Source: an uncultured Pseudomonadota bacterium | GTDB taxonomy: Bacteria > Pseudomonadota > Gammaproteobacteria > Steroidobacterales > Steroidobacteraceae | Length of the DNA stretch: 64,000 bases | NCBI GenBank assembly: GCA_963703025.1 | Contig: OY969778.1 | Span: 897,160 to 961,159, forward strand | Direction: 5' to 3' | Shown here: one piece after another, positions 20,636 through 34,735 of the stretch | Layout of the letters: every line of letters starts with the position of its first letter | How positions within the stretch are numbered: the first letter of the stretch is position 1 | The notes under the pieces: generated by a model | The model's input: only the letters and a program-made list of their open reading frames with translations | What the model was told of the DNA's origin: nothing | Database searches by the model: none | Position numbers and translations under genes: made by a program

Positions 20636-22126
20636 ATGGACATCAACGGCTCCCCCGAAAACTCCCCCGAACCACACATTCGCCACGCGCAGGCCTTGCA
20701 GGGCGCAGGACGCCTGGTCGAGGCGGAGCAGGCCTACACGCGAGTCCTGGCACGGTGGCCGGCGCTGCCAAACTGCTGGTTCAACTTAGGGGTGGTGCAG
20801 CGCCTGCAGGGCCGCGGCGAGGCAGCGCTCGCCTCGTACCGCGAGGCACTCAACCATGGCGTCTCGCGGCCCGAGGAGGTCCACCTCAACCGCGCCGTGA
20901 TACTCAACGACGTCCTGCAGCGCGCCGTCGAGGCCGAGGCTGAGCTGCGCGCCGCGCTGGCGCTGAACCCGACCTACCTGCCGGCGATGCTCAATCTTGC
21001 CAACCTGCACGAGGATCGCGGCGAGCGCGAGGCCGCCCGAGCGCTGTACGGCCAGATCCTGACGCTCAATCCCCTGGACTTCCTCGCCTTTGCGCGCCTA
21101 TCCAACCTGATGCCGCGCGGCTCGCACGATCCGCAGCTCATCGAGCGGCTGCGCGGCGCGCTCACCCGAGCCGAAGCCTCGGCGGCGGACCGCGCGCACG
21201 TGGGCTTTGCCCTGGGACGGGCGCTGGACGGGGTGAAGGACTACCCGGCGGCCTTTGCCGCCTACCAGGCGGCCAACGAGGCCAGCCGTGCCGGCACCGC
21301 GCTGCCGGTTCACTACGACCGCGCCGCGCACGAGCAGGTGGTCGATGAACTCATCGCAACCCCACTGCCTGCGCCGGTGGAGTCGGTGACCCCGTCGCGG
21401 CGACGGCCGGTCTTCATATGCGGGATGTACCGCTCCGGCTCGACCCTGACCGAGCACCTGCTGGCCGGACATCCCGAGGTCGGCGCGGGCGGGGAGCTGC
21501 CGCTGCTGTCACGCCTCATCAGCGATCAGCTGGTGCCCTTCCCGGCAGCCCTGGCACGCGCATCCGCGGCGCACCTGGCGCGCCTGGCCGCCAGCTACCG
21601 CGCGAGCATCGCCACCTTGTTCCCCTCGGCGGCCTTCGTGACCGACAAGCGTCCGGACAATTTCTTCTGCATCGGCCTGATCAAGACCCTCTTCCCGGAT
21701 GCCCGGATCGTGCACACGGTGCGCGATCCGCTGGACACCTGCCTCTCGGTGTACTTCCTGCACCTGGACCATCGCCTCAGCTACGCCCTTGATCTTTCTG
21801 ACATTGGCCACTTTTACCGCCAGTACCAGCGCCTGATGGCGCACTGGAAGCAGCTCTTCGGGACTTCGATCATCGACTTCGACTACGACCGGTTCGTGCA
21901 GTCCCCGGAGCCCACTGCCGCGCAGCTATTCGGCGCGCTCGGGATGACCTGGGATGCGAGTTTCCTGGACTTCCCGCGCACCGCACGCAGCGTGCGCACG
22001 GCCAGTGTCTGGCAGGTGCGTGAGCCGCTGTACCAGCATTCCTCGGGGCGGGCGCGGCACTACGCGCGCGAGCTGGGGGCCTTGCGCAGGGAACTCGGCC
22101 TGCCGCCTGCAGACGACACCGGCTGA
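20636..22126 (+). CDS. TPR-repeat protein with C-terminal PAPS-dependent sulfotransferase domain (paralog 1, 496 aa)
   Basis: N-terminal TPR-like repeats (AEQAYTRVLARWPALPNCWFNLGVV..., ALNPTYLPAMLNLANLHEDRGEREAARALYGQILTLNP). The C-domain has the 5'-phosphosulfate loop FICGMYRSGSTLTEHLL and the 3'-phosphate motif VRDPLDTCLSVYF. No signal peptide. Confidence 0.75.
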   Translation: MDINGSPENSPEPHIRHAQALQGAGRLVEAEQAYTRVLARWPALPNCWFNLGVVQRLQGRGEAALASYREALNHGVSRPEEVHLNRAVILNDVLQRAVEAEAELRAALALNPTYLPAMLNLANLHEDRGEREAARALYGQILTLNPLDFLAFARLSNLMPRGSHDPQLIERLRGALTRAEASAADRAHVGFALGRALDGVKDYPAAFAAYQAANEASRAGTALPVHYDRAAHEQVVDELIATPLPAPVESVTPSRRRPVFICGMYRSGSTLTEHLLAGHPEVGAGGELPLLSRLISDQLVPFPAALARASAAHLARLAASYRASIATLFPSAAFVTDKRPDNFFCIGLIKTLFPDARIVHTVRDPLDTCLSVYFLHLDHRLSYALDLSDIGHFYRQYQRLMAHWKQLFGTSIIDFDYDRFVQSPEPTAAQLFGALGMTWDASFLDFPRTARSVRTASVWQVREPLYQHSSGRARHYARELGALRRELGLPPADDTG

Positions 22127-22134
22127 GGGCTCCG

Positions 22135-22800
22135 GTGAGCGACTCGCCCGAGGTCGTGCCGGTCTTCGCCACACCCTTCGGTGTGGTCAGCCTGCCCGTG
22201 GCGCGGGAATCCAATGCGGCGCTGGCCGCGGTGTTCACCGCCCGCGCACTGCCCCCGGGGGAAGCCGCGACTGCAGGCGCGCACGCCAGCTTCTGCAGCC
22301 CAGAGGACCTGCTCGAGTGGCAAGACCCGGCCGTGGTGCAGCTCAGCCGCGAGATGCTGGCCGGCGTGAGCGCGTTTGCGACTTCGATCAGCGAACTGAC
22401 AACCGAGCAGTGGGCCAGCCTGCAGCTGCAGGCACGCGGCCGGTTCACGGTCATCGCCAACAATGGCTATGTCTCGCCCCACAGCCATCCGAACACCTCC
22501 TGGGTCGCCATCTACTGTGTCGCGGCGCCCCCGCCGTCGGCTATGCGGCATGACAGCGGCGTGCTGCGCCTGCACGAGTTCCGCCCGGGGGCGATGTTCG
22601 TGGACTCCGCCCACGGCACCGCGCGAATGCCCTACCGCCCAGGACACGTCATCTGGCGACCCGTTCCCGGCAAGATGGCGGTTTTTCCTGCCACGATCAC
22701 CCATGAAGTCGCACTTTTACGTGCAGAATCGCCCCTGATCCTGGTCACCCTGCGGATCCGGTTCGTGGGCGCAAACCAACCGTGGATGCCCCCGTGGTAG
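22135..22800 (+). CDS. 2OG-Fe(II)-oxygenase-like / cupin protein of an uncharacterised family (paralog A, 221 aa)
   Basis: GTG start 8 nt after the sulfotransferase stop. The motifs HSHPNTSWVAIYCV and MAVFPATITHEV match, from memory, the 2OG-FeII_Oxy_5 / TIGR02466-type pattern (HxHP..S..S..Y ... FPS...H.V). This needs HMM confirmation. Confidence 0.55.
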   Translation: MSDSPEVVPVFATPFGVVSLPVARESNAALAAVFTARALPPGEAATAGAHASFCSPEDLLEWQDPAVVQLSREMLAGVSAFATSISELTTEQWASLQLQARGRFTVIANNGYVSPHSHPNTSWVAIYCVAAPPPSAMRHDSGVLRLHEFRPGAMFVDSAHGTARMPYRPGHVIWRPVPGKMAVFPATITHEVALLRAESPLILVTLRIRFVGANQPWMPPW

Positions 22801-23447
22801 CCCCTGCCCTGACCCTCCACCCCCGCTTCGCGGTCCCGGTCGCCGAGGCACACCTTTCGCCCTGCGAGGCGCTCAACCACGAGCTTGAGGCACTCTTCCT
22901 GGCGCGGGAGACCGATGAGTACCGCAACCCGATGCCCAGCCACCGGCCCCAGCAGGAGCTGTTCGAGAGTCGCTTCAACCTGTTCCGCTGGCCTGAGGCA
23001 TGTATCCAGCAGCTGCGCGCCTTCGTTCTGGAGGGTGTCGCCCAGGCGGTGCTGCGCGCGACGGACCTGTCCGCGCAGGAACTGGGCCGCCTGCAGTTCC
23101 ACAATCACACCTGGTTCCATATCACCCGGCACGCGGGCTCCTTCGTGGCCCACAACCACCCGATGGCCTCCTGGTCAGCCGTGTACTGCGTGCGTGCCGG
23201 GGAGTCAGTCCCCGGCCAGCCCGACAGCGGCCTCCTGCGATTGCGTGACCCACGCAGCGGCGCCGCTGCGTACCAGGATCCGGCAAACGCGCGCCTGCAG
23301 GGGCAGTTTCAGCTGCGTCCGCTGGAGCTAAGACTCGTTCCAGGCCAGCTGGTGGTCTTCCCCTCGTACGTGTTTCACGAGGTTGCACCCTTTTTCGGCG
23401 GCGACCGCCGCATCACCGTGGCCACCAATTGCTGGTTTGCCCAATAG
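22782..23447 (+). CDS. 2OG-Fe(II)-oxygenase-like / cupin protein (paralog B, 221 aa)
   Basis: Overlaps paralog A by 19 nt. Its motifs HNHPMASWSAVYCV and LVVFPSYVFHEV sit at the same relative positions as in paralog A. It ends ...RITVATNCWF. Confidence 0.55.
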   Translation: MDAPVVAPALTLHPRFAVPVAEAHLSPCEALNHELEALFLARETDEYRNPMPSHRPQQELFESRFNLFRWPEACIQQLRAFVLEGVAQAVLRATDLSAQELGRLQFHNHTWFHITRHAGSFVAHNHPMASWSAVYCVRAGESVPGQPDSGLLRLRDPRSGAAAYQDPANARLQGQFQLRPLELRLVPGQLVVFPSYVFHEVAPFFGGDRRITVATNCWFAQ

Positions 23448-23549
23448 GCCACACCCGCCATTACCGCCCCTTTTGTGGTTCGAAAGATACAGCGCCGGCG
23501 CACATTTGCCTGCCGCGTACGAGCGCCTAGCGGCCTTTTCGATAATCTT

Positions 23550-23578
23550 TTGCGCACTTCCTTACTCGCGTGTAGTCT
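23550..23578 (+). promoter_or_regulatory. Possible sigma-70 promoter for the TonB-dependent receptor gene
   Basis: TTGCGC (23550-23555), a 17-nt spacer, then TAGTCT (23573-23578). It lies in the AT-richer 224-nt gap upstream of the receptor. The match is moderate only. Confidence 0.3.
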
Positions 23579-23671
23579 TTCCGCCATAGCCACCGCGAGC
23601 GCAACATTCCAGCAACTGCGCCGCTGTTGCACGTGCTTTTCACGGACCTTGGACCTTGGGGAGATAAACGA

Positions 23672-26600
23672 ATGACGAAGACTAATCGCGCTCTGCGAAA
23701 CGCCGTCCGATTTGCCCTGGCGACCGCTGCCAGCGCCTCGGCGCCGCTCGCGTTTGCGCAGACCGCACCGGCCGCCGCCTCGGGGCAGATTCAAGAGGTA
23801 GTCGTCACAGGCTCGCGCCTGATGCAGGCGCCGAACGATGTGTCGATCAGCCCGATCACCACCGTTACGCAGCAGGACATCCAGCAGACCGGCCTGATTC
23901 GTACCGAGGACATCCTCAACAACCTGCCGCAGGTCGCAGTGGAACAGGCTTCGGGCAACTCCATCAGCTCCGTCGGCGTCGCGACCGTCAGCCTGCGTGG
24001 CTTAGGTTCGCAGCGCACCCTGGCGCTGATCGATGGCCGCCGCATGAACCCCGGTGGTGCCGGTGGCGTGCCCGGTGGCAACGCCAGTGCCGCAGACATC
24101 AACCAGATCCCGTCGGAACTGATCGAGCGCGTTGACGTGCTCACCGGCGGCGCCTCGGCCGTGTACGGCGCTGACGCTGTGGCCGGTGTCGTGAACTTCG
24201 TCATGAACACCCACTTCGAGGGTGTGCAGGTCAGTGGTTCCTACAGCTTCAACAACCACCACAACGGCGACCAGACGTACCTGAACTACCTGTCCGAGTC
24301 GGGTAACCCGCTGCCCGCGAGCACGGTCAACACCGGCCAGAACCGCACCGGTTCGATCATCATGGGAGCGAACTTTGCCGACGGCCGCGGCAACGCCACC
24401 GCGTACGTGACCTACCTGAACAGCTCACCTGCGGTGGGCTACCAGTTCGACCACGCGGGCTGCACGCTCAATGGCAGTTCGTCCTCGCTGTCCGCCCCGC
24501 CCTTCTGCGGCGGCTCGTCAACCAGCGCCGGCGGTCGTTTCAAGCTGTTCGGCCTGAATGCTTCGGGCCATACCGTCACGCTGCTGAACAACACGGTTGA
24601 TCGCACCACGGGTGCCTTCCGCAACTACGACGCCGGGACGGACGCCTACAACTATGGTGCGCTCAGCTACTTCCAGCGCCAGGCCGAGCGCTGGACCGCC
24701 GGCGCGTTCCTGCATTACGACCTGAACGACCACGTCACGACGTACTCCGAGACCATGTACGCGTACAACACCAACACCGCGCAGTACGGGCCAAGCGGCG
24801 CGTTCGCTTACACCCCGGTCCCGACCAGCTGCGACAACCCGCTGCTGACCGCGCAGGAAGTGTCGACCATCTGTACCCCGGCGAACCTCGCCGCGAACCA
24901 GGCCCTCTTTGGTGGTACCGGCAACCAGTTCACCGAATACCTGGGCCGCCGCAACGTCGAAGGCGGCGGACGTCTGGACAACTACACGTCCAACTCCATC
25001 CGCCAGGTGGTTGGCATGAAGGGCCAGATCAACAGCGCCTGGAGCTACGACGCCTACGCCCAGCTTGGCATCACGACGTTCTCCGACTTCGAAGGCAACT
25101 TCCTGGGAACGCAGCAGATCGGCTACTCCCTGGATGTCATCAAGAATCCTGCCGTCGGCGGCGTCGTGGGCGTCCCGGTCGGTGCCCCGGTCTGCCGTTC
25201 GGCACTGCCCGGCGGCGCGCAGCCGACCTGCGTACCGTGGAACATCTGGCAGGCTGGCGGCGTCAGCGCCGCGGCCCTGAACTACCTGACGGTCCCGGCA
25301 AGCTACGGCTCGGATTCGAAGGAGTACATCGTGGATGCCTCGGCCACCGGCGACCTGGGCAAGTACGGGATCCAGCTGCCGACCGCGAACAGCGGCCTGA
25401 ACGTGAACGTCGGCACGGAGTACCGCCAGGAGAAGTTCGACTTCAGCCCCGATTACATCTTCGAGAATGGCTTCCAGGCCGGCGGCGCGCCGGCGGGCCC
25501 GATCAACGGCCAGTTCCACGTCTGGGAAGGCTTCACGGAAATGCGCCTGCCGTTGGTCGACGAGAAGCCGGGGATCTACCTGCTCTCGATGGACGCCGGC
25601 TACCGCTATTCCAGTTACACGGAAGGCTTCGACACCAACACCTACAAGTTCGGTGTTGAATATGCCCCGATCCGCTCACTGCGCCTGCGCACCGGCTACA
25701 ACCGCGCGGTCCGGGCGCCGAACCTGAACGAACTGTACCAACCGGCAGCGGTGGGTGCTGGCGGCACGGCCGACCCGTGCTGGGGCACGACCCCGATCTA
25801 TACCCAGGCGGAGTGCGCGCGCACCGGCGTGACCGCTTCGCAGTACGGTCACCTCGACGTCAACGGGGCCGCGCAGATCAACACCCAGGTCGGTGGTACT
25901 TCAAGTCTCACCCCGGAAACGGCAGACACCTTCACCATCGGTGGTGTGTGGCAGCCGGACTTCGTACCCGGGCTGAACGTGTCGATCGATGCCTTCGATA
26001 TCAAGATCAAGAACACGATCACCTCGCTGTCCTCGAACTCGATCATCGCCAACTGCGCAGTGAACGATGACCCGTTCTCGTGCGCATCGATCCATCGTGG
26101 CGCCAACGGCTCGCTGTGGTTCAACACCTCCGAGTACGTCTCGGCGCTGTACCAGAACATCGGCACCGTGCAGACCAAGGGTATCGACCTCACCTCCGGC
26201 TACCACGTCAACATGGGCCACATGGGCCGGTTGATGGTGAACCTCGTGGGCACGTACACCAACAGCTTCACGGTCAACCCGATCCCGGGTGTGAACTACG
26301 ACTGCGCGGGCTACTTCGGTTCGACCTGCGGCGCACCGTTGCCCAAGTGGCGTCATGTGCTGGGCACGACCTGGGGCACCCCCTGGGCGGGGCTGGACCT
26401 GACGTTGCGCTGGCGCTATCTCGGCACCTCGTCGGTCGACCGTTCGAGCTCGGATCCGTCGCTGGCTTCCCCGTACTACCCGTACACGGCGCACATCCCG
26501 GCGTACAACTACATCGACATCTCGGCCGCGATGCCACTGTTTGGCAACTTCGAGGCGCGTGTGGGTGTGAACAACATCGCCGACAAGAACCCGCCGTTGA

Positions 26601-26716
26601 TCCTGAACGGCACGTACTCGGATTGCCCGAATACGAGCTGCAACGACAACACGTGGGTGGGAACGTACGACACGCTCGGCCGGTACATCTACATGAACCT
26701 GACCGCGAAGTTCTAA
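23672..26716 (+). CDS. TonB-dependent outer-membrane receptor (about 1014 aa precursor)
   Basis: ATG 23672 is preceded by GGGGAG. Signal peptide MTKTNRALRNAVRFALATAASASAPLAFA-QT. TonB box/plug reads IQEVVVTGSRL...ISPITTVTQQDIQQTGLIRTEDILNNLPQV...VSLRGLG...TLALIDGRR. The long Gly/Asn/Tyr-rich barrel ends ...YIYMNLTAKF (terminal Phe). No N-terminal signalling (STN) extension. Confidence 0.92.
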   Translation: MTKTNRALRNAVRFALATAASASAPLAFAQTAPAAASGQIQEVVVTGSRLMQAPNDVSISPITTVTQQDIQQTGLIRTEDILNNLPQVAVEQASGNSISSVGVATVSLRGLGSQRTLALIDGRRMNPGGAGGVPGGNASAADINQIPSELIERVDVLTGGASAVYGADAVAGVVNFVMNTHFEGVQVSGSYSFNNHHNGDQTYLNYLSESGNPLPASTVNTGQNRTGSIIMGANFADGRGNATAYVTYLNSSPAVGYQFDHAGCTLNGSSSSLSAPPFCGGSSTSAGGRFKLFGLNASGHTVTLLNNTVDRTTGAFRNYDAGTDAYNYGALSYFQRQAERWTAGAFLHYDLNDHVTTYSETMYAYNTNTAQYGPSGAFAYTPVPTSCDNPLLTAQEVSTICTPANLAANQALFGGTGNQFTEYLGRRNVEGGGRLDNYTSNSIRQVVGMKGQINSAWSYDAYAQLGITTFSDFEGNFLGTQQIGYSLDVIKNPAVGGVVGVPVGAPVCRSALPGGAQPTCVPWNIWQAGGVSAAALNYLTVPASYGSDSKEYIVDASATGDLGKYGIQLPTANSGLNVNVGTEYRQEKFDFSPDYIFENGFQAGGAPAGPINGQFHVWEGFTEMRLPLVDEKPGIYLLSMDAGYRYSSYTEGFDTNTYKFGVEYAPIRSLRLRTGYNRAVRAPNLNELYQPAAVGAGGTADPCWGTTPIYTQAECARTGVTASQYGHLDVNGAAQINTQVGGTSSLTPETADTFTIGGVWQPDFVPGLNVSIDAFDIKIKNTITSLSSNSIIANCAVNDDPFSCASIHRGANGSLWFNTSEYVSALYQNIGTVQTKGIDLTSGYHVNMGHMGRLMVNLVGTYTNSFTVNPIPGVNYDCAGYFGSTCGAPLPKWRHVLGTTWGTPWAGLDLTLRWRYLGTSSVDRSSSDPSLASPYYPYTAHIPAYNYIDISAAMPLFGNFEARVGVNNIADKNPPLILNGTYSDCPNTSCNDNTWVGTYDTLGRYIYMNLTAKF

Positions 26717-26750
26717 GCGAAGCTTCCAGCTTCCTCGACGAGCAAAATTT

Positions 26751-26778
26751 ACGGCGGGCCTCGGCCCGCCGTTTTTTT
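26751..26778 (+). terminator. Rho-independent terminator after the receptor gene
   Basis: ACGGCGGGCC tc GGCCCGCCGT followed by TTTTTTT, 35 nt after the stop codon. Confidence 0.85.
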
Positions 26779-26840
26779 GCCTGTCGTGCGCGTAGGCGCG
26801 CGCCAAGGTCCCGCTGCGCGGCTTCTGGCATGATGCGCCC

Positions 26841-28448
26841 ATGCCACGTGACCTAAAGGCGGACCAGGAGTTGCTCGGCAAGGTCCTGGCGCATGCGCAG
26901 AACCGCGACATACACCGGGCCGCCGTGCTCGCCGAACAGGCCCTTGCTGAGGGCTTCGAGCATCCGCTGCTGCTGAACATCGCAGCCACGCGGCTGGAGC
27001 AGGAGGGCAGGCTGCAGGAAGCACTGGGCCTGCTGGAGCGCGGGGTCGCGCTGGCACCGGCGGACGTACCGGTACGCAACGCGCTGGCGTTGTGCCTGCA
27101 GCGGCTGGACCGGCCGCAGGAGGCCCTGACCCACCTGGAGCTGATACTCAAGGAGCACCCCAAGCTCAGCTTCGCCCACGCCAGCAAGGGCAACGCGCTC
27201 ATCGCCCTGGGCTCACTCGGGCTCGCACAGGCCAGCCACCTGCGGGCGCTGGAGCTGGACGCGGACAACATTGCGGCGATGGGCTCGCTTGCCTCGATCG
27301 CCACCCACCGCGGTGACCACGCCGGCGCGCGGCGCTGGGCGGAACGGCTTCTCGCGCGCATGCCGGGCTTTCCCGATGCGGTGCTCAGTCTCGCGGCGGC
27401 CGACCTGGCCGGCGGCGCCACGGCGCGGGCGGAGGCGGCTCTGCGCGCCCTGCTGGCCGACCCGCGTGCGGGGGCGACCGACCGGGCGCGGGCCTTGGGA
27501 CAGCTGGGCGACGTGCTCGATGCCACCGGGCGCTACGCGGAAGCCTTCGAGGCTTACGCATCAGGCAACGAGCTGACGCGGCAGGCGCAGCGCCGGTTCG
27601 CAGAACCGAGCCTGCTCAGCTACACCCATGCACTCTCGGCCACCTTCAGCGCGCTCGCGCCGCGCTGGCCGCGCAGCGCCGCGGCGCAGCCGGTCGCGGG
27701 CGGCCCCGCGGGGCACGTCCTGCTGATGGGGTTCCCGCGCTCGGGCACCACGCTGCTCGAGGCAGTCCTCGACGGGCACCCGCAGGTGGTGAGTCTTGAG
27801 GAGCACGACCTGTTCACCGAGGGGGTGCTGCGCTTCCTGGGCGACCCGCACACGCTTGATGCGCTGGCGGGTGCCGATGAGGCCCAGCTGGCACCGCTGC
27901 GTGCGGCGTACTGGGCCCGGGCGCGCGCTGGCGGCGCCGACCTCGACGGCAAGGTGTTCGTGGACAAGCACCCGCTCAACACACTGAAGCTGCCCCTGGT
28001 CGCGCGACTGTTCCCCGAGGCCAAGATCCTGTTCATACGCCGCGACCCGCGCGACGTCGTGTTCAGCTGCTTCCGGCGCCGCTTCAGAATGAACCCGGCC
28101 ATGTACCAGATGCTGACGCTCGACAGCGCGGCGCGGTTTTACGATGCGGTCATGGACTTCGCCGCGCGCGTGCAGCCGGTGCTTGGCCTGCCGTGGCTGG
28201 ACGTGCGCTACGAGGGGCTGATGGGGGAGTTCGCCGCACAGACACAGCGCATCTGTGCATTCCTCGGCCTTGAATGGACCGCCGGCATGGGCGAGTTCGC
28301 AAGCCGCGTCCAGTCGCGCGAGAGTGCCACCCCGAGCACCGCGCAGCTGGCGCGCGGCCTGGACCCTTCAGGGATCGGTCACTGGCGGCATTACGCGGGC
28401 GAGCTTGCACCGGTGCAGGCGGTGCTGGAGCGCTGGATCAGCCAGTAG
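26841..28448 (+). CDS. TPR-repeat protein with C-terminal sulfotransferase domain (paralog 2, 535 aa)
   Basis: TPR-like N-half (LEQEGRLQEALGLLERGVALAPADVPVRNALALCLQRLDRPQEAL...). Sulfotransferase motifs are VLLMGFPRSGTTLLEAVL and FIRRDPRDVVFSCF. No signal peptide. Confidence 0.75.
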   Translation: MPRDLKADQELLGKVLAHAQNRDIHRAAVLAEQALAEGFEHPLLLNIAATRLEQEGRLQEALGLLERGVALAPADVPVRNALALCLQRLDRPQEALTHLELILKEHPKLSFAHASKGNALIALGSLGLAQASHLRALELDADNIAAMGSLASIATHRGDHAGARRWAERLLARMPGFPDAVLSLAAADLAGGATARAEAALRALLADPRAGATDRARALGQLGDVLDATGRYAEAFEAYASGNELTRQAQRRFAEPSLLSYTHALSATFSALAPRWPRSAAAQPVAGGPAGHVLLMGFPRSGTTLLEAVLDGHPQVVSLEEHDLFTEGVLRFLGDPHTLDALAGADEAQLAPLRAAYWARARAGGADLDGKVFVDKHPLNTLKLPLVARLFPEAKILFIRRDPRDVVFSCFRRRFRMNPAMYQMLTLDSAARFYDAVMDFAARVQPVLGLPWLDVRYEGLMGEFAAQTQRICAFLGLEWTAGMGEFASRVQSRESATPSTAQLARGLDPSGIGHWRHYAGELAPVQAVLERWISQ

Positions 28449-28479
28449 GCTGCGCCAACCCAGGCGCGCGCCGCGGCGC

Positions 28480-29001
28480 TCACTTGGCGCGCTGCGCCCG
28501 GTACGTGTGGTGCGTGGACGTGGTGATGAGGTAGGAACCCAGCGCGGCGCGCTTGATGGTCACTTCGCTGCCGGTCGGCGGCGGCCCGCCGGCGTCCAGG
28601 TACGTCCAGGTCTGGCCATTGTCGAGGCTCACGAAGTTGTTGCCCTGGCGATCAGCACTGGCTGCCACCACATGGGCCGTGATGGCCTGGGTACTTAGCT
28701 CGGTAGGGGCCACGTGCGTGCTCATCCCGAAGCCACCGGCCGCCGCGACCGGTGCGGCTGCCCCTGCGGACCCGGTGGCGCCGGCAGCAGGCGCGCCAGC
28801 GACCGCGGCAGCAGGCGCAGCCGGCGGCGGCATCTTGGCCACCGCGAGCGTGTCGTAGCAGGCCAGACGCTGATCGACAGCGATGATCGCCGCACAGTGC
28901 GCAAGCTCGCTGACGCTCACCGTCGGTGCCGCCGCCGCGGCGGCACCGGCAAGCCCCAGCCCCGCCAGCATGGCCGAGCACACCGTGGCCACCGGGCTCA
29001 C
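28480..29001 (-). CDS. Small exported protein of unknown function (173 aa) with Cys pair, Ala/Pro-rich linker and beta-rich C-terminal domain
   Basis: The GTG start overlaps the stop of the upstream hydroxylase gene (GTGA). The hydrophobic N-terminus MSPVATVCSAMLAGLGLAGAAAAAA-P is signal-peptide-like but lacks a basic n-region. It continues HCAAIIAVDQRLACYD, then the linker PPPAAPAAAVAGAPAAGATGSAGAAAPVAAAGG, then ...FVSLDNGQTWTYLD...VTIKRAALGSYLITT. Confidence 0.6.
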   Translation of the reverse strand: MSPVATVCSAMLAGLGLAGAAAAAAPTVSVSELAHCAAIIAVDQRLACYDTLAVAKMPPPAAPAAAVAGAPAAGATGSAGAAAPVAAAGGFGMSTHVAPTELSTQAITAHVVAASADRQGNNFVSLDNGQTWTYLDAGGPPPTGSEVTIKRAALGSYLITTSTHHTYRAQRAK

Positions 29002-30305
29002 AGCGCCTTCTCGCCCGGCTGGGCGTAGTGGCTGCCGTAGACCTGCGTCGCGGCCGCGATCATCTCGCGCTCCACGGCGGTCAACAGCGGGTTCCAGATG
29101 TCGAAGATCAGGATGGCGCGCGGGGTGTCAGAGTTGTTCCAGGCCTCGTGCTCGATGGTGTCGTCGAACACCCATGCCTTGCCCGGCACCCACTCGCGGG
29201 TGGTCCCGCCGACGCGGAAGCCGCAGCCGGGCGGCACGATGAGCGGCAGGTGCACCGTCAGCCGCGTATTGGTGACGCCGGTGTGCGGCGGGATGCGCGT
29301 GTTGGCATCGAGGATGGAGAAGAAAGCCGTCGGGGCGCGGGCGGCCACCTGGGGCCGCGGCACCTCCGCCAGCGCCCGCTCGGTGGCCGGGCACCGCGCG
29401 ATGTGTCCGGCATCCGGCACGCTCTGGTTCCACAAGAAGTACGCGCTCCAGCTGCGCGAACGGTTCAGCGCGCGGAACTGGTCGAGCGGCATGTCGGGGG
29501 GGAAGTCGATGTATGGCTGCAACCCGTCGCGATCGGCCACGAGCACGCGCAGCAGCTCAGCGCGGATCTGGTCGCTGGCCCCCTCCAGTGCCTCCAGCCA
29601 CGGGAAGTCCGTACGCTCGAAGAACTCGATCGCCGGCAGCTCCGGGAAGTACATCCACGTGGGCTGCGAATGGTAGATGCTGCGCCGGCCCATGAGCGCC
29701 TCGATGCACGCATCGACCCGCCGCTGCGCCCCCGCGCCGTGGCGCTCGCGGATTGCCGCCAGCGGCGCTTCCAGCTGCGTGGTGAGGAGGGCCAGATCCT
29801 TGTCGACCAACAGCTGTGCGCGGCGCAGCGCCTCGCGCAGGTGCGCCGGTGGTTCGGTGCCCGGCCGCACGCAGGCCAGCGCGCTCTGGTAGGCGCGCGC
29901 AGCACCGCGCAGCTCCCCTGCATCCTCAAGGTGCGCGCCCTTCTGCAGCAGCGCCGACAGGTGGCGTGGTTCCAGTTCGAGGGCGGTCTGGATCGCGTCC
30001 ATCTCCTCAGCGGAGCGCCCGAGCGCCTTCAGGCTGCTGGCCAGGTTCGCCCACAGCGAGGGGTGCTTCGGGTCGACCTTCGTGGCGCGCTCGAACAGTG
30101 CGCGTGCCTGCTCGGCATTGCGGCGGTCGAGCATGCGCACGCCCAGCTCGTTGAGCACTGCGGGGTGGTTGGGCGCGCGCTGCGCGAGCGCCACCAGGAT
30201 CTGGTCAGATTCGCCGGCACGTCCGGCGACGGCGGCAGCCTTGGCGGACTGCAGGGTGCGGATGACTGCGGCGTCGTCGAGGTCAGCGGGCACTGAGGCA
30301 TTCAA
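28998..30305 (-). CDS. TPR-repeat protein with C-terminal aspartyl/asparaginyl beta-hydroxylase-family (Fe/2OG) domain (435 aa)
   Basis: N-terminal TPR-like repeats (NHPAVLNELGVRMLDRRNAEQARALFERATKVDPKHPSLWANLASSLKALGR...). The C-domain reads RIPPHTGVTNTRLTVHLPLIVP and KAWVFDDTIEHEAWNNSD, the two signature blocks of the Asp_Arg_Hydrox family. The start is TTG 30305 (GTG 30293 is an alternative). No signal peptide or TM segment. Confidence 0.72.
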   Translation of the reverse strand: MNASVPADLDDAAVIRTLQSAKAAAVAGRAGESDQILVALAQRAPNHPAVLNELGVRMLDRRNAEQARALFERATKVDPKHPSLWANLASSLKALGRSAEEMDAIQTALELEPRHLSALLQKGAHLEDAGELRGAARAYQSALACVRPGTEPPAHLREALRRAQLLVDKDLALLTTQLEAPLAAIRERHGAGAQRRVDACIEALMGRRSIYHSQPTWMYFPELPAIEFFERTDFPWLEALEGASDQIRAELLRVLVADRDGLQPYIDFPPDMPLDQFRALNRSRSWSAYFLWNQSVPDAGHIARCPATERALAEVPRPQVAARAPTAFFSILDANTRIPPHTGVTNTRLTVHLPLIVPPGCGFRVGGTTREWVPGKAWVFDDTIEHEAWNNSDTPRAILIFDIWNPLLTAVEREMIAAATQVYGSHYAQPGEKAL

Positions 30306-30337
30306 TCGGTAGTCCCCGGTAGGAGGGCAATGGCACG

Positions 30338-30366
30338 ATTATACGCGTAGCAGTGCAGCCCGGAAC
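30338..30366 (-). promoter_or_regulatory. Possible promoter of the hydroxylase/small-protein operon
   Basis: A perfect TATAAT on the minus strand (30343-30338) lies about 33 nt upstream of the TTG start. The -35 region is poor (GTTCCG/TTCCGG). Confidence 0.3.
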
Positions 30367-30393
30367 GCGCCGCCGCGCAGGTGGCGGCCACAA

Positions 30394-30422
30394 TTGACTC
30401 CCCCGGCGGACTCGGCTTATAT
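30394..30422 (+). promoter_or_regulatory. Probable sigma-70 promoter of the third sulfotransferase operon
   Basis: TTGACT (30394-30399), a 17-nt spacer, then TTATAT (30417-30422). The TTG of this -35 hexamer is what the ORF track uses as the start codon of ORF 30394-32523. Confidence 0.5.
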
Positions 30423-30519
30423 ACCGCCGCCGTCCCAGGGGACGAGCACGGCACCGGGGCGCCAGAACAGGCTCCTGCCGCCGGCACTAACGTGCCACTG
30501 CACTCCCGGAGTCGCCATC

Positions 30520-32523
30520 TTGAGCACCGCTTCCGCCGACCTGGAACTCATGCGTGCCTCGCTGCTGCTTGAGTCGGACCCGCCGGCGGCAGCGCGACGT
30601 GCGAGCGAAATTCTCGCCCAGTTCCCCGGGCACGCCGAGGCCAGCCTGCTGCTGGCCACCGCCTGCCGCAACCTCGGCGAGCCGGCGACCGCGGCAAGCG
30701 TGCTGGAGGGGCTCGTGGCGGGCAATGCCGAGTCGCCGTCGATCCTGCTGGAACTCGGGCGTGCCTACGCCGCCGCCGGACGCTCGGCCGAGGCCATCGC
30801 AGTCATGCAGCGAGCGGTCGCCGCGGATCCGCAGTTCGCCGATGGCTGGCAGCACCTGGCCGCGCAGTACTTCGTGGCCGGGGACACCCTCGCCGGTGAC
30901 GATGCCTACGAGCGCTACACGCTCCTGTGGCGCCGGCCCCAGGAACTGGCCGATGCGATGCGCGCGCTTGCCGACAACCGTGTTGAGGCCGCGGAACAGA
31001 TCCTGCAACGGCGCCTGCAGCACACCCCGCACGATGTCGCCGCGCTGCGGCTATTGACCGAGGTGGCGCTACGGCGCGAAGACGACCTGCAGGCTGAGCG
31101 CTCACTCGGGCAGTGCCTCGCGCTTGCGCCAGGCTACGCGGCAGCGCGCTACGACCTGGCGCGGCTGCTGTATTCCCAGCAGCGCATCGCGGAGATGCTG
31201 GTGCAGCTGGCGCGCCTGCTCGCCGCGCAGCCGCGTAACCTCAACTACCTGGGCCTGAAGGCCCACGGCCTGCGCATACTGGGCAACAACGACGCGGCAA
31301 TGAAGCTCGTCCAGGAGTTGATCGCCGAGTATCCGCTCGAGGAGCAGGTGTGGATACTGTATGGCACCGTGCTGCGCGAGGTCGGTGAGCAGCCGCGCGC
31401 GATCGAGGCGTTCCGGCAGGCGCTCATCGTGCGCCCCGGCTCATCCAGCGCGTACGCAAGTCTTGCCAACCTCAAGACCTTCCGCTTCAGCACCGAGGAG
31501 CTCACGGCCATGCGCGAGCAGCTGGCGCTCGACAGCGTGCGCGGCGCCGATCGCGTCCAGCTCGAATTCGCCCTGGGCGCCGCATTCGAGCACCGCCACG
31601 AGTTTGCGCAGTCCTTCGAACACTATGCGCGCGGCAACAGCCTGCATCGCTCCACCCTGTTCTACGACCCGGGGTTCGTGACCGAACGGGTGCAGCGCAC
31701 GCGCGCGTTGTTCAACGCGCAGTTCTTCGCAGAGCGGCAGGGGTGGGGCAGCCAGCAGACCGACCCGATCTTCATCGTCGGCATGCCGCGCTCCGGCTCG
31801 ACGCTGCTCGAACAGATGCTCGCCTGCCACTCGCAGGCGGAGGGCACGCGCGAGCTTCCGGATTTGCCGATGCTGGCGCTGGAGCTCCTGGCAAACGTGG
31901 CCGAGCCGACACAGGCGTCGCTGTTCGAGAAGTTTGACGCGTTGCGCCCCGAGGAGGTGGCAACCCTGGCCGCCCGCTACCTCCAGAGCACCCGCGGGCA
32001 CCGGCACCTCGGCAAGGCGCGCTTCGTCGACAAGCTGCCCGGCAACTGGTCACTGCTGGGCTTCGCGATGCTGCTGTTCCCGCGCGCGTCGATCATCGAC
32101 GCGCGCCGCCACCCGCTCGCCAGCGGCTTCTCCTGCTACAAGCAGCTGTTCAGCCGCGGCCAGCAATTTACCTACGACCTGCGCGAGGTCGGGCTCTTCG
32201 CACGCGACTACACCACGCTCATGCAGCACTTCGATGACATCCTCCCCGGGCGGGTCCACCGCGTGCACTACGAACACCTGATCAGCGACCCTGAAGCTGA
32301 GCTGCGCAGGCTCCTGGAATACTGCGGCCTGCCCTTCGAGGAGCAGTGCCTGCGCTTCCACGAGAACCGGCGCGCCGTATCGACCTTAAGTTCCGAGCAG
32401 GTGCGCCAGCCGCTCTACTCGGAGAGCGTGGATCACTGGCGCAACTACGAACCGTGGCTGGGTCCGCTGAAGGACGCGCTGGGCGGCCTTGTTGCGCAGT
32501 ACCCGCAGGTCCCGAAGCCCTGA
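30520..32523 (+). CDS. TPR-repeat protein with C-terminal sulfotransferase domain (paralog 3, about 667 aa)
   Basis: The start is taken at TTG 30520 (GGAG 8 nt upstream); in-frame ATG 30550 is an alternative. It has a long TPR array (ILLELGRAYAAAGRSAEAIAVMQRAVAADPQFADGWQHLAAQYF...). Sulfotransferase motifs are IFIVGMPRSGSTLLEQML and IIDARRHPLASGFSCY. Confidence 0.75.
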   Translation: MSTASADLELMRASLLLESDPPAAARRASEILAQFPGHAEASLLLATACRNLGEPATAASVLEGLVAGNAESPSILLELGRAYAAAGRSAEAIAVMQRAVAADPQFADGWQHLAAQYFVAGDTLAGDDAYERYTLLWRRPQELADAMRALADNRVEAAEQILQRRLQHTPHDVAALRLLTEVALRREDDLQAERSLGQCLALAPGYAAARYDLARLLYSQQRIAEMLVQLARLLAAQPRNLNYLGLKAHGLRILGNNDAAMKLVQELIAEYPLEEQVWILYGTVLREVGEQPRAIEAFRQALIVRPGSSSAYASLANLKTFRFSTEELTAMREQLALDSVRGADRVQLEFALGAAFEHRHEFAQSFEHYARGNSLHRSTLFYDPGFVTERVQRTRALFNAQFFAERQGWGSQQTDPIFIVGMPRSGSTLLEQMLACHSQAEGTRELPDLPMLALELLANVAEPTQASLFEKFDALRPEEVATLAARYLQSTRGHRHLGKARFVDKLPGNWSLLGFAMLLFPRASIIDARRHPLASGFSCYKQLFSRGQQFTYDLREVGLFARDYTTLMQHFDDILPGRVHRVHYEHLISDPEAELRRLLEYCGLPFEEQCLRFHENRRAVSTLSSEQVRQPLYSESVDHWRNYEPWLGPLKDALGGLVAQYPQVPKP

Positions 32524-32533
32524 TGGGCCGCGC

Positions 32534-34735
32534 ATGAGCGAAACCCAGTTCAAGCTCGCGCAGGCGCTCGCGCTGTACCAGCAGCGACGGGTGCCCGAGG
32601 CCGTGGCCCTCTACCGCGAAGTGCTGATGGTCGAGCCGCGCAATGTCGATGCCCTGCACCTGTGCGGACTCGCCCTGGCAAGCCTGGGGGACTTCCAGCG
32701 CTCCCCGATCCTCCTGGACGCGGCCGCGCAGATCGCCCCGGGCAGTGCCATGATCCAGGCGAATCTTGCCGCCGCGCTGAGCGGCGCCGGCCGCGCCGAG
32801 GAGGCGCTTGCCGCCTACGAGCGGGCGCTGGCAATCGAACCCCAGCTGCCGGCAGCGGTGCGCGGGCGGGCCATGGCGCTCATGCATCTCAATCGGCATG
32901 AGGAAGCCGTCGCGGGGTTCCGCGAGGCCCTGAGGATTGCACCGAATGACGACCACGCCGGCAACGGCCTGGGCGTGGTGCTCGAGCAGATGGGCCGCGC
33001 GGACGAGGCGCGCGAACAATTCGCGCGCGCCCTCCTGCTGAACCCGGCAAACGCCGAGGCGCACCATAACCTTGGGCTGCTCGAGGCGACCGCGGGACGG
33101 CATGCCGAGGCGCTCGCGAGCATCGAGCGTGCCCTGGCCTTGCAGCCGCGGCAGCCGATCCTGCACCTCAACCACGGGGTCCAGCTGCTCGCCCTCAGGC
33201 GGCCCGAGGAGGCCGTACGCAGCTTCGACCGCGCGCTTGCGCTGCAGCCGCGCGACGCGCTCACGCATCACAACCGCGGCCTCGCCCTGTTCGCCCTCGG
33301 GCGCCACGAGGAGTCACTCGCAAGCTTCGATCGCGCGCTCGAAGCAGCCCCCGATCATGCCGCACGACAGCTGTGGCGCGGCAAGACACTGCTGGAGCTC
33401 GGGCGACCGGCCGAGGCACTCGCCGCCTTCGAGATTGCGCGCCAGTGCGCGCCGGGGGAATTCGAGGTGCACATGCACTGCGGCGGCGCGCTCACGCTGC
33501 TGGAGCGCCACGAGGAGTCGCTCGCAAGCTTCGATCGCGCGCTCGCCCTCGAGGCGAACTCACCTGAGGCCGCCAACAACCGCGGTGCGGTGCTGGTGCG
33601 CCTGTTCCGGCCCTCCGAGGCGCTCGAGGAATTCGCGCGTGCGCTGGCCCTGCGCCCGGACTTCGCTGACGCCCTGATCAACACTGGCAATGTGCTGCGC
33701 GGGCTTGGCAGGTTCGACGAGGCGCATCTGCCGCTGCAAAGGGCACGCGAGCTGCGACCGCAGGATGCGAACGTTCGCTGGAGCCAAGCTTTGCTGAGTC
33801 TTTCGCAGGGTGACTTCCGCACGGGCCTGCCGCTGTACGAGGCGCGGCTGGAGCTGCCCCCGGCGAGCCAACTGCAGCATCCTGACGTGCCGCGCTGGAA
33901 TGGCGCTGGATCAATCGCCGGGCGGAGGCTCTATGTGTACGCCGACCAGGGATTGGGCGACACGCTGCAGTTCTGCCGCTACATACCGGTGCTCGAGGGA
34001 CTCGGGGCGCAGGTGATCTTCGCCGTCCAGCCGGTACTGGTACAGCTGCTGCAGTCGCTGCCGATGCGCGGACAGCTGATCGCGCGCGGCGAGCCGGCAC
34101 CCGGGGCTGAACTCTCCGTGCCGCTGGCGAGCGTGCCGCTGGCGCTGGGCACCGAGATCGCAACGATCCCGGGGGGCGTGCCCTACCTGCGCGCGGAGCC
34201 CAAGTCAGCGATCACCTGGGCCGGCCGGCTCGCGGCATTGCCCGGCGTCAAGGTGGGACTCAACTGGCACGGCAACCCGGCCGCGGAGAAATTCGCGGCC
34301 CTGCAGGCCCGCTCGTTCCCGCTGGCGGCCGCGGCGCCGCTGGCGCAAGTCAAGGGTGTCAGCCTGGTCTCGCTCCAGAAGGGTGACGGCGCGCAGCAGC
34401 GCGAGCGCGTGAGCTTTGCTGACGCGCTCGCGCAGCTTACCGAGCCGTCACACATGGGAGCCGCGGAACTTGCGACCGAGACTGCCGCGCTGATCGAGGG
34501 TCTGGACCTGGTCATCACCGCGGACACCGCGCTCGCCCACCTCGCCGGGGCCCTGGGCGTGCCGGTCTGGGTCATGCTGCAGCACATCCCTGACTGGCGC
34601 TGGCTCACCGACCGGTCAGACAGCCCGTGGTATCCCACCATGCGGCTGTTCCGCCAGAGTGCGGCGGGGAACTGGGACGAGTTGTTCGAGCGCGTCGCCA
34701 GCGAGCTGTCCGCCCTGGTGCGCGCACGTGCCTGA
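32534..34735 (+). CDS. TPR-repeat protein with C-terminal GT9-like (heptosyltransferase-fold) glycosyltransferase domain (about 733 aa)
   Basis: ATG 32534 lies 10 nt after the preceding stop. About 12 TPR units are present (AVALYREVLMVEPRNVDALHLCGLAL..., repeated A..fdRALAlqP pattern). The C-domain reads RRLYVYADQGLGDTLQFCRYIPVL...VGLNWHGNP...LVITADTALAHLAGALGVPVWVML...WYPTMRLFRQ, as in GT9-type enzymes. The domain call is from motif recall only. Confidence 0.6.
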   Translation: MSETQFKLAQALALYQQRRVPEAVALYREVLMVEPRNVDALHLCGLALASLGDFQRSPILLDAAAQIAPGSAMIQANLAAALSGAGRAEEALAAYERALAIEPQLPAAVRGRAMALMHLNRHEEAVAGFREALRIAPNDDHAGNGLGVVLEQMGRADEAREQFARALLLNPANAEAHHNLGLLEATAGRHAEALASIERALALQPRQPILHLNHGVQLLALRRPEEAVRSFDRALALQPRDALTHHNRGLALFALGRHEESLASFDRALEAAPDHAARQLWRGKTLLELGRPAEALAAFEIARQCAPGEFEVHMHCGGALTLLERHEESLASFDRALALEANSPEAANNRGAVLVRLFRPSEALEEFARALALRPDFADALINTGNVLRGLGRFDEAHLPLQRARELRPQDANVRWSQALLSLSQGDFRTGLPLYEARLELPPASQLQHPDVPRWNGAGSIAGRRLYVYADQGLGDTLQFCRYIPVLEGLGAQVIFAVQPVLVQLLQSLPMRGQLIARGEPAPGAELSVPLASVPLALGTEIATIPGGVPYLRAEPKSAITWAGRLAALPGVKVGLNWHGNPAAEKFAALQARSFPLAAAAPLAQVKGVSLVSLQKGDGAQQRERVSFADALAQLTEPSHMGAAELATETAALIEGLDLVITADTALAHLAGALGVPVWVMLQHIPDWRWLTDRSDSPWYPTMRLFRQSAAGNWDELFERVASELSALVRARA

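What the first reader, a model, noticed from the sequence alone, without database searches (positions are those of the whole stretch)
28480..30305. Asp/Asn beta-hydroxylase-family enzyme translationally coupled to a small exported protein
The stop of the TPR-hydroxylase gene and the GTG start of the 173-aa ORF share the tetranucleotide GTGA (28998-29001), so the two are almost certainly co-translated. The hydroxylase has no export signal, whereas the small protein begins with a signal-peptide-like hydrophobic segment. Eukaryotic Asp/Asn beta-hydroxylases act on folded protein domains, and the TPR array here could dock a protein substrate. The small protein is therefore a candidate substrate, modified before export, or a partner. 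No EGF-type consensus site is visible, so this remains inference.
Basis: partly seen in the sequence, partly recalled or inferred. Interest (0 to 1): 0.6.

Follow-up and report, generated by a model that had tools for sequence, protein, structure and literature searches.

The report
Hydroxylase gene coupled to exported mini-protein
A bacterial relative of the human protein-modifying enzyme ASPH is always encoded with a four-base overlap onto a small exported two-cysteine protein of an undescribed family; the pairing is real and old, but whether the enzyme modifies that protein is still untested.

Summary
A 435-aa TPR plus Asp/Asn beta-hydroxylase gene (28998-30305, minus) ends in a TGA that shares GTGA with the GTG start of a 173-aa ORF (28480-29001).

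The hydroxylase keeps every iron and 2-oxoglutarate residue of human ASPH and has no export signal. The small protein has:
- a signal peptide;
- a two-helix hairpin with two invariant cysteines and the motif RLxC[YF]D;
- a disordered Ala/Pro linker;
- a six-strand beta domain with no solved or curated relative.

The ATGA/GTGA overlap was read directly in 19 loci. It is present in 18 of 22 evaluable hydroxylase genes of the genus and in 6 of 6 metagenome relatives. Two paralogous hydroxylase clades (45-50% identical) each have it, and the two genes' trees mirror each other.

The small-protein family is wider than the hydroxylase. Elsewhere it sits beside TonB-dependent receptors (14 of 35 loci) or between tatC and tatD (7 of 35). 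Its invariant residues do not depend on the hydroxylase, and no EGF-type site exists in this genome.

My best reading, about 40%, is hydroxylation of the pre-protein before Sec export, inside a receptor-centred cassette of TPR-fused tailoring enzymes. This scan has met the cassette before on other DNA. I found no experimental study of it.

The parts
28998..30305 (-). Gene for a 435-aa cytoplasmic TPR + Asp/Asn beta-hydroxylase (ASPH-like)
   Evidence: ORF. PF05118 at E 4e-42. Human ASPH at E 1e-25. AF2 model pLDDT 90.2. Best Foldseek hits are human ASPH TPR+oxygenase chains, E 6.5e-18.
29694..30275 (-). TPR/helical-repeat half (aa 11-204)
   Evidence: TPR Pfam families over aa 28-148. Helices H11-26 to H195-204 in the model.
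29088..29573 (-). Oxygenase domain (aa 245-406) with H341, H386 (iron) and S330, H352, R396 (2-oxoglutarate)
   Evidence: Alignment to human ASPH 5apa. These residues are invariant in 23 hydroxylases.
29006..29012 (-). Shine-Dalgarno-like GAGAAGG inside the last hydroxylase codons, 4 nt before the GTG
   Evidence: Read. Purine-rich equivalents occur in relatives. Function is inferred.
28998..29001 (-). GTGA: hydroxylase stop TGA overlapping the small ORF's start GTG
   Evidence: The same ATGA/GTGA was read in 19 loci.
28480..29001 (-). Gene for a 173-aa exported two-cysteine protein of an uncurated family
   Evidence: 383 homologues. No Pfam or NCBIfam match.
28927..29001 (-). Signal-peptide-like N-terminus (about aa 1-25, ends AAAAAA|P)
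   Evidence: Hydropathy. Homologues all carry a hydrophobic N-terminus, mostly with Arg in the n-region. The cleavage site was not predicted by any tool.
28837..28914 (-). Two-helix hairpin (aa 30-55) with C36, R45-L46, C48, Y49, D50 (motif C-x11-C-[YF]-D)
   Evidence: AF2 helices 30-37 and 42-55 with pLDDT above 90. Invariant columns.
28732..28836 (-). Low-complexity Ala/Pro linker (aa 56-90), predicted disordered
   Evidence: pLDDT 40-50. Length is variable in the alignments.
28483..28731 (-). FG motif plus six-strand beta domain (aa 91-173; W132, R171 invariant)
   Evidence: AF2 strands 106-171 with pLDDT above 90. No significant PDB fold match, best E 0.085.
20636..34735 (.). Surrounding cassette between pgl and zwf: TPR-sulfotransferase, two PF13759 oxygenases, TonB-dependent receptor, TPR-sulfotransferase, the pair, TPR-sulfotransferase, TPR-GT9-like protein
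   Evidence: Pfam. Synteny in relatives and metagenome contigs.

Best explanation
**What it is.** The two genes form one translationally coupled unit. It lies inside a conserved cassette built around a TonB-dependent receptor and made of TPR-fused cytoplasmic tailoring enzymes.

**Shown.**
- The hydroxylase is an intact ASPH-type Fe(II)/2-oxoglutarate enzyme with an N-terminal TPR arm and no export signal.
- The small protein is a signal-peptide protein of an undescribed family: disulfide-type helical hairpin, linker, beta domain.
- The 4-nt overlap and the pairing are kept across deep divergence, and the two genes diversify together.

**Inferred.**
- Ribosomes finishing the hydroxylase re-initiate at the overlapping GTG, helped by the internal GAGAAGG. 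Enzyme and pre-protein are therefore made together.
- The TPR arm docks the still unfolded pre-protein in the cytoplasm.
- The enzyme hydroxylates a side chain. The only Asp/Asn invariant in all coupled copies is D50, in C-[YF]-D.
- The neighbouring TPR-sulfotransferases and the GT9-like enzyme may add further groups.
- The protein then leaves through Sec, forms its C36-C48 disulfide, and works in the periplasm with the cassette's receptor.
For: **Overlap and start.**
- GTGA overlap and SD-like element in the window.
- The same ATGA/GTGA was read in 19 loci. Only that start preserves the signal peptide.

**Linkage.**
- 18 of 22 evaluable TPR-hydroxylase genes in the genus have the small gene immediately downstream.
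- 6 of 6 distant metagenome homologues (32-44% identity) show the same arrangement in the same cassette.
- Two paralogous hydroxylase clades each carry their own small-protein clade with matching sub-clades. Supports are 98/100 and 100/98 for the hydroxylases, against 98/95 and 100/99 for the small proteins.
- Genomes with two or three hydroxylases have as many small genes (G006, G016).
- A strong TPR-hydroxylase without a small-family gene was seen only in three incomplete genomes. The reverse is common.

**Enzyme.**
- The catalytic residues of human ASPH are invariant.
- The architecture is the same TPR + oxygenase as human ASPH.
- All five cassette enzymes carry TPR arms and none has a signal or TM segment.

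**Precedent.**
- Iyer et al. 2010 (PMC2938197) predicted beta-hydroxylase plus sulfotransferase operons acting on co-encoded secreted proteins.
- From established knowledge, cytoplasmic modification of Sec clients is known for HMW1C-HMW1 and AAH/TibC-autotransporters.
Against: - Enzyme and product end up in different compartments, so modification must precede Sec export of an unfolded chain. The two-cysteine ring cannot be formed at that stage.
- There is no EGF-type C-x-[DN]-x4-[FY]-x-C site in the small protein, nor in any credible frame of the genome.
- The small family is much wider than the hydroxylase. In 35 loci from a phylum-wide sample, only 1 has a hydroxylase next door.
- Its invariant residues, D50 included, are the same with and without a hydroxylase. 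No hydroxylase-specific target site stands out.
- Four-base overlaps are common in operons and do not prove physical interaction.
- I have no expression, proteomic or mass data.
Confidence: 0.4

Rival explanations
1. Same pathway, no direct modification. The small protein is a periplasmic accessory of the TonB-dependent receptor, handling a ligand or interacting with the receptor. The cytoplasmic TPR enzymes act on something else: an imported compound or peptide, the receptor precursor, or another envelope protein. The overlap only keeps expression of operon members balanced.
For: - Family members lie directly beside a TonB-dependent receptor in 14 of 35 phylum-sample loci, and within 4 kb in 21 of 35. 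Mostly no hydroxylase is present.
- Nine relatives have the small gene and often the sulfotransferase/receptor cluster but no TPR-hydroxylase.
- The invariant residues do not depend on the hydroxylase.
- The compartments differ.
- A receptor that needs a cytoplasmic dioxygenase is documented for CciT-CciO (PMC12004947).
Against: - In this lineage the small gene is tied to the hydroxylase, not to the receptor, by a 4-nt overlap kept in two old paralogue clades.
- The cassette has no inner-membrane transporter for an imported substrate.
- TPR arms on every enzyme argue for a protein or peptide client.
- The receptor's EGF-like C-x8-C loop does not track hydroxylase presence.
Confidence: 0.3
2. 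Partner rather than substrate. The pre-protein or its signal peptide or linker binds the TPR arm and regulates or localises the hydroxylase. For example it could tether the enzyme to the Sec site or to the membrane, or report envelope status, without being modified itself.
For: Conserved coupling implies roughly equimolar synthesis. The TPR arm is a peptide-docking module. Hydroxylase and small-protein trees are congruent.
Against: - The mature protein is exported, so any complex would be transient.
- Signal peptides and linkers are poorly conserved.
- Tree congruence is expected from linkage alone.
Confidence: 0.1
3. The hydroxylase is a lipid hydroxylase of the LpxO/OlsC type, and the small protein is an unrelated passenger in the operon.
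For: Weak NCBIfam similarity to OlsC (93.9 bits) and LpxO (50.5 bits).
Against: - Both scores are far below the cut-offs of 450 and 500.
- There is no membrane segment.
- The closest sequence and fold relatives are human ASPH with the same TPR + oxygenase layout.
- The pairing with the small gene is too conserved for a passenger.
Confidence: 0.05

Closest known systems
Human aspartate/asparagine beta-hydroxylase (ASPH; PDB 5jqy, 6yyu, 5apa)
   Same: - Same family: PF05118.
- Same N-terminal TPR + C-terminal oxygenase layout.
- Same unusual two-His iron site (PHTG and EHE) and the same 2-oxoglutarate residues.
- Both act in the context of exported proteins.
   Different: - The bacterial enzyme is cytoplasmic and soluble, not an ER-lumen membrane protein.
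- No EGF-domain substrate or consensus exists in the genome.
- The position equivalent to human R688 is Thr in the alignment.
- The modelled domain orientation differs: full-length TM 0.44, against 0.79 for the oxygenase domain alone.
Beta-hydroxylase + sulfotransferase operons predicted to modify co-encoded secreted proteins (Iyer, Abhiman, de Souza, Aravind 2010, PMC2938197)
   Same: The logic is the same: a 2OG hydroxylase and PAPS-type sulfotransferases clustered with a non-enzymatic secreted protein, taken as the substrate. TonB-like receptors appear in related neighbourhoods.
   Different: The proposed substrates there are collagen-like or phage tail-collar proteins. Here it is a two-cysteine hairpin + beta-domain protein, the enzymes are TPR-fused, and the hydroxylase is translationally coupled to the candidate. 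Neither case has been tested experimentally.
Cytoplasmic tailoring of Sec-exported clients: HMW1C-HMW1, AAH/TibC-AIDA-I/TibA (from established knowledge, not tested here)
   Same: A cytoplasmic enzyme is encoded next to a signal-peptide protein that it decorates before export. The cassette also holds a GT9-like enzyme, the fold family of AAH/TibC.
   Different: Those enzymes are glycosyltransferases acting on large adhesins. No hydroxylase example of this kind is known to me.
CciT-CciO / Fiu-YbiX / PiuA-PiuC: TonB-dependent receptor that needs a cytoplasmic Fe(II) dioxygenase (PMC12004947)
   Same: An outer-membrane receptor is co-conserved with cytoplasmic 2OG-type oxygenases whose substrate is unknown.
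   Different: That system is a two-gene pair with a PiuC/YbiX-type enzyme. It has no TPR arms, no sulfotransferases and no small exported protein. Whether the window's receptor is iron-regulated was not tested.
VasI / TagO-like type VI secretion accessory protein (PF11319, TIGR03360)
   Same: They share the N-terminal C...RLxCYD motif after a signal peptide. A few homologues of the small protein reach 27-32 bits on PF11319.
   Different: - The window protein itself does not match.
- The matches cover only the first ~20-50 profile positions.
- NCBIfam scores are at most 20 bits against a cut-off of 124.
- There is no type VI context.

Membership tests
ASPH-type Asp/Asn beta-hydroxylase (PF05118) | Profile match above the curated cut-off | tested here: met
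   144.2 bits against a cut-off of 22.6, aa 245-406.
ASPH-type Asp/Asn beta-hydroxylase (PF05118) | Two-His Fe(II) site and 2-oxoglutarate-binding Ser/His/Arg, as in human H679, H725, S668, H690, R735 | tested here: met
   H341, H386, S330, H352 and R396 align to the human residues. They are invariant in 23 homologues.
ASPH-type Asp/Asn beta-hydroxylase (PF05118) | N-terminal TPR domain joined to the oxygenase domain | tested here: met
   TPR Pfam hits. The model has eight or more helical pairs followed by the beta fold. Top ten Foldseek hits are human ASPH TPR+oxygenase chains over about 455 columns. Inter-domain geometry is not reproduced (TM 0.44).
ASPH-type Asp/Asn beta-hydroxylase (PF05118) | Substrate with the EGF-type consensus C-x-[DN]-x4-[FY]-x-C | tested here: not met
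   Absent from the small protein. There are only 3 matches in 5.3 million six-frame residues of the genome, all in low-GC3 frames.
ASPH-type Asp/Asn beta-hydroxylase (PF05118) | Beta-hydroxylation of a protein Asp/Asn | not testable with these tools
   Needs mass spectrometry or an enzyme assay.
VasI (PF11319 / TIGR03360) | Profile match above the cut-off over the whole domain | tested here: not met
   No PF11319 hit for the window protein even at E <= 10. Seven family members score 11.6-17.8 bits against 26.5, and at most 20 against 124, on the N-terminal motif only.
VasI (PF11319 / TIGR03360) | Location in a type VI secretion gene cluster | tested here: not met
   The neighbours are sulfotransferases, oxygenases and a TonB-dependent receptor.
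LpxO / OlsC lipid hydroxylases | Equivalog score and a membrane-bound enzyme | tested here: not met
   50.5 bits against 500 and 93.9 against 450. No TM-like segment.
Translationally coupled gene pair | Stop/start overlap conserved in orthologues, with the start confirmed by the N-terminal alignment | tested here: met
   19 loci with ATGA/GTGA. N-termini align. Actual re-initiation was not measured.
Cytoplasmic enzyme + Sec-exported client (HMW1C/AAH type logic) | Enzyme without a signal, adjacent client with a signal peptide, modification shown | tested here: inconclusive
   The first two features are met. The modification is untested.

The most novel reading that the evidence does not exclude
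The hydroxylase beta-hydroxylates the family-invariant Asp50 (C-[YF]-D) of the pre-protein before Sec export. This would give a periplasmic mini-protein that carries a beta-hydroxy-aspartate, the metal-chelating group of many siderophores and of calcium-binding EGF domains. That protein would serve the adjacent TonB-dependent receptor as a protein-borne ligand or metal shuttle. It would be the first bacterial ASPH-type protein hydroxylation with a defined client and the first non-EGF recognition site for the family.
Probability: 0.1. Interest if true: 0.85.

Novelty: new variant of a known kind. Interest (0 to 1): 0.55.

Why it matters
ASPH-type hydroxylases are known as animal enzymes acting on EGF domains. 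What their many TPR-fused bacterial relatives do is unknown.

This pair offers a concrete one-enzyme, one-candidate-client test system. The client is a 173-aa exported protein from an uncurated but widespread family.

If the enzyme does modify it, that would establish three things:
- protein Asp hydroxylation in bacteria;
- a new substrate logic for the family;
- an entry point into a widely conserved, unstudied cassette that links cytoplasmic hydroxylases, sulfotransferases and a glycosyltransferase-like protein to an outer-membrane receptor.

If it does not, the small protein still defines a new periplasmic family tied to TonB receptors and, in other bacteria, to the tat operon.

Tried and rejected
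- **EGF-type site.** A genome-wide scan for C-x-[DN]-x4-[FY]-x-C gave only 3 hits, all in low-GC3 frames.
- **Receptor as substrate.** The receptor's C-x8-C loop CAVNDDPFSC (aa 810-819) looked EGF-like. Similar loops occur in receptors without a hydroxylase and are missing from several hydroxylase cassettes. Rejected.
- **VasI membership.** Only sub-threshold N-terminal motif matches.
- **Fold of the small protein.** Foldseek against PDB gave nothing significant: best E 0.085, TM 0.17-0.23.
- **Tat export.** Some homologues have RR in the n-region, but many, including the window protein, have none. Two conserved cysteines also fit Sec/DsbA better.
- **Lipoprotein.** There is no consistent lipobox before a Cys.
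- **Downstream ATG (M11) as true start.** Rejected, because relatives have no alternative start that keeps the signal peptide.
- **Promoter/terminator scan of 28200-30700.** Nothing above chance.
- **Literature.** Searches for the cassette, for PF05118 in bacteria and for the RLACYD motif found no study.
- **Complex prediction.** The tools take single window-encoded chains only, so I did not attempt it.
Full report
**1. Observation**

On the minus strand a 435-aa ORF (28998-30305) is followed by a 173-aa ORF (28480-29001). The + strand reads 'tcac' at 28998-29001. On the coding strand this is GTGA, with TGA as the stop of the first gene and GTG as the start of the second.

The first protein matches PF05118 (Asp/Asn beta-hydroxylase) at E 4e-42 over aa 245-406, and TPR families over aa 28-148. 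Similarity to the lipid hydroxylases OlsC and LpxO is far below their cut-offs.

The second protein matches no Pfam or NCBIfam model. It does have 383 homologues at E <= 1e-3 in the large protein collection, so it is a real gene.

By a simple hydropathy measure, only the small protein and the receptor have signal-like N-termini. None of the cassette enzymes has a signal or a membrane segment. No signal-peptide predictor was available.

**2. The start codon and the coupling**

GAGAAGG lies 4 nt upstream of the GTG, inside the last hydroxylase codons. I read the junction in relatives:
- Window, G014, G012, G001 (ATGA), G024, G013, G010, G022 and G007 all place the start at -3 relative to the end of the hydroxylase stop.
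- Five loci of a second hydroxylase paralogue group do the same (G002, G021, G011, G006:C4, G016:C150; all ATGA).
- Five metagenome contigs do the same.
- A sixth metagenome contig has the same gene-call coordinates but no DNA was available.

That makes 19 loci read directly. In relatives the next in-frame start lies 48-198 nt downstream and would delete the charged n-region and the hydrophobic core. The overlapping start is therefore the real one. Purine-rich SD-like elements recur 5-12 nt upstream. Re-initiation itself is inferred, not measured.

**3. How conserved is the pair**

Counts among 41 relatives:

| Feature | Count |
|---|---|
| Genomes with the small family (profile A3) | 32 of 41 |
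| Genomes with PF05118 (any type) at E <= 1e-10 | 29 of 41 |
| Genus: evaluable TPR-hydroxylase genes with the small gene immediately downstream | 18 of 22 |
| Genus: small gene elsewhere in the same cluster (G004, G016:C150b) | 2 of 22 |
| Genus: divergent (~40% identity) hydroxylases in other contexts, no small gene (G003:C29, G016:C199) | 2 of 22 |
| Distant homologues (32-44% identity) from metagenomes with the same arrangement | 6 of 6 |

In those six metagenome loci the surrounding cassette is also the same: a TonB-dependent receptor, two PF13759 oxygenases, two to four TPR-sulfotransferases, and sometimes a TPR-glycosyltransferase-like protein. In the genus the cassette lies between pgl and zwf.

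A strong TPR-hydroxylase without any small-family gene was seen only in three incomplete genomes (G003, G005, G015). The small gene without a hydroxylase occurs in nine.

Maximum-likelihood trees show the coupled small proteins as two well-supported clades (13 rows at 98/95; 5 rows at 100/99). The hydroxylases form the matching two clades (98/100; 100/98) with the same sub-clades. Genomes with two or three hydroxylases carry as many small genes. The pair has therefore been inherited and duplicated as a unit. Tree congruence is expected from linkage and does not by itself show contact between the proteins.

**4. The hydroxylase**

The C-terminal half aligns to human ASPH (5apa, E 1e-25). It keeps PHTG (H679 equivalent), EHE (H725), the Ser, His and Arg that hold 2-oxoglutarate, and R686. 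Human R688 is Thr here.

In 23 homologues H341, H386, S330, H352, R396 and R348 are invariant.

The AF2 model is confident (pLDDT 90.2). It shows a helical-repeat half (aa 11-204) and the double-stranded beta-helix half. Its ten best PDB matches are the human ASPH TPR+oxygenase constructs, at E about 1e-17 over about 455 columns. The full-length TM is only 0.44, so the modelled inter-domain angle differs. The oxygenase domain alone superposes at TM 0.79 and rmsd 3.5.

It is a bona fide, probably active member of the ASPH family with the ASPH architecture.

**5. The small protein**

Alignments of 25, 66 and 50 sequences show these parts in order:
- a hydrophobic N-terminus;
- the motif C-x11-C-[YF]-D containing R-L;
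- a linker of very variable length and composition (Ala/Pro-rich here);
- an FG dipeptide;
- a beta domain with the motifs L-x-N-G-Q-x-W and L-G-S.

Family-wide invariants are C36, R45, C48, D50, G92, W132 and R171.

AF2 (pLDDT 73.8 overall, above 90 in the folded parts) gives two helices, 30-37 and 42-55, that bring the two cysteines together. It gives a disordered linker and six strands over 106-171. Foldseek finds no significant solved relative.

Some homologues carry sub-threshold or marginal PF11319 (VasI) hits, but only on the N-terminal motif. About a dozen ~400-aa proteins in other genomes share only that motif. The protein is not a VasI member. It belongs to an uncurated family.

**6. 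The family is wider than the hydroxylase**

A profile search of 400 genomes spread over the phylum hit 51 genomes. I fetched 35 loci:

| Context of the small-family gene | Loci (of 35) |
|---|---|
| Hydroxylase next door (convergent) | 1 |
| Hydroxylase elsewhere in the cluster | 2 |
| TonB-dependent receptor directly adjacent | 14 |
| TonB-dependent receptor within 4 kb (includes the 14) | 21 |
| Between tatC and tatD (same class as the window) | 7 |

One locus pairs the gene with a receptor and with PAPS-synthesis genes, cysQ and cysNC.

The conserved residues, D50 included, are the same in all these contexts. The small protein is therefore a general periplasmic module. In the window's lineage it has become tied to the hydroxylase, and in another class of the phylum it is tied to receptors.

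**7. What it most likely does**

*Shown:*
- a conserved translationally coupled pair;
- an intact cytoplasmic ASPH-type enzyme with a peptide-docking arm;
- an exported two-cysteine protein;
- a cassette in which every enzyme carries a TPR arm, and the only non-enzymes are the receptor and this protein.

*Inferred (about 40%):* the hydroxylase, and possibly the sulfotransferases and the GT9-like enzyme, decorate the pre-protein in the cytoplasm before Sec export. HMW1C and AAH/TibC do this for their clients (established knowledge). Iyer et al. predicted it for hydroxylase-sulfotransferase operons (PMC2938197). D50 is the only Asp/Asn conserved in all coupled copies.

*Main rival (about 30%):* the small protein only serves the receptor, and the enzymes have another target. 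The family's wider distribution, the compartment mismatch and the CciT-CciO precedent (PMC12004947) favour this.

*Minor rivals:* a non-substrate docking partner (about 10%) and a lipid hydroxylase (about 5%).

I tested and rejected two side ideas:
- There is no EGF-type site anywhere in the genome.
- The receptor's EGF-like C-x8-C loop does not track hydroxylase presence.

**8. Known or new**

I found no experimental paper on the pair, the cassette or the motif. The general neighbourhood type was noted by comparative genomics in 2010.

Earlier notes of this scan describe the same cassette in at least eight other genomes, and the same ATGA-coupled pair in one other genome. I used these as leads only.

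I rate it a new variant of a known kind: an ASPH-family enzyme with a new genomic partner and no EGF substrate. Interest is moderate to good because the hypothesis can be tested directly with one co-expression and mass-spectrometry experiment.

**Limits**

- No expression or proteomic data.
- No signal-peptide predictor and no complex prediction.
- Several relatives are draft genomes with apparent frameshifts in these genes (G006, G009, G014).

Noticed in passing
L068, L071, L072, L073, L074, L078, L091 (about 9.4-10.5 kb in each locus): In seven genomes of the same class, one or two genes of the small-protein family sit between tatC and tatD. In L074 the gene overlaps both neighbours by 4 nt. 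This is a conserved and, as far as I can see, undescribed member of the tat operon neighbourhood.
   Followed up: partly
L096:6501-12955: A receptor-adjacent family member is followed by cysQ (PAP phosphatase family) and a cysN/cysC fusion (PAPS synthesis). This links the family to sulfation even where no TPR-sulfotransferase was detected.
   Followed up: no
G163, G350, G141, G197, G293, G296, G401, G211, G191, G281, G175, G147: Open frames of about 360-440 aa match only the N-terminal C...RLxCYD motif of the profile (positions ~10-90). The motif is therefore a portable N-terminal module on larger proteins. I suspect outer-membrane phospholipase A from memory, but did not test this.
   Followed up: no
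L033:13311-15244: Just beyond the cassette on this metagenome contig lie an 84-aa ORF, an MbnB/TglH/ChrH-family gene (PF05114) and an HvfC_N gene (PF09836). This is a small-peptide modification-type trio.
   Followed up: no
contig of P0115, locus positions 10287-11542: A reverse-transcriptase/maturase pair of group II intron type (RVT_1, GIIM) is inserted between the sulfotransferase and the receptor of the cassette.
   Followed up: no
P0028, P0029, P0057 (L035:8001-8537): Some coupled small proteins carry the RLACYD motif twice in tandem (…ERLACYDALICAAIAAADERLACYD…).
   Followed up: no
window 23627-26716 (receptor protein): The 1029-aa TonB-dependent receptor has 14 cysteines arranged as seven close pairs (for example C810-x8-C819, C1000-x4-C1005). 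They probably form loop disulfides.
   Followed up: partly
G009:C1:105449-107321, G006:C6:2287-2813, G014:C1:171936-173245: In three relatives the hydroxylase or the small gene is split by apparent frameshifts. In G009 the small ORF loses its signal peptide in the called frame. I could not tell assembly errors from pseudogenes.
   Followed up: no
window 28449-28479: Only 31 nt separate the convergent stops of the second TPR-sulfotransferase and the small ORF. The spacer holds a short GC hairpin (GCGCC-AACCCA-GGCGC) without a T-run. The terminator scan did not call it.
   Followed up: partly
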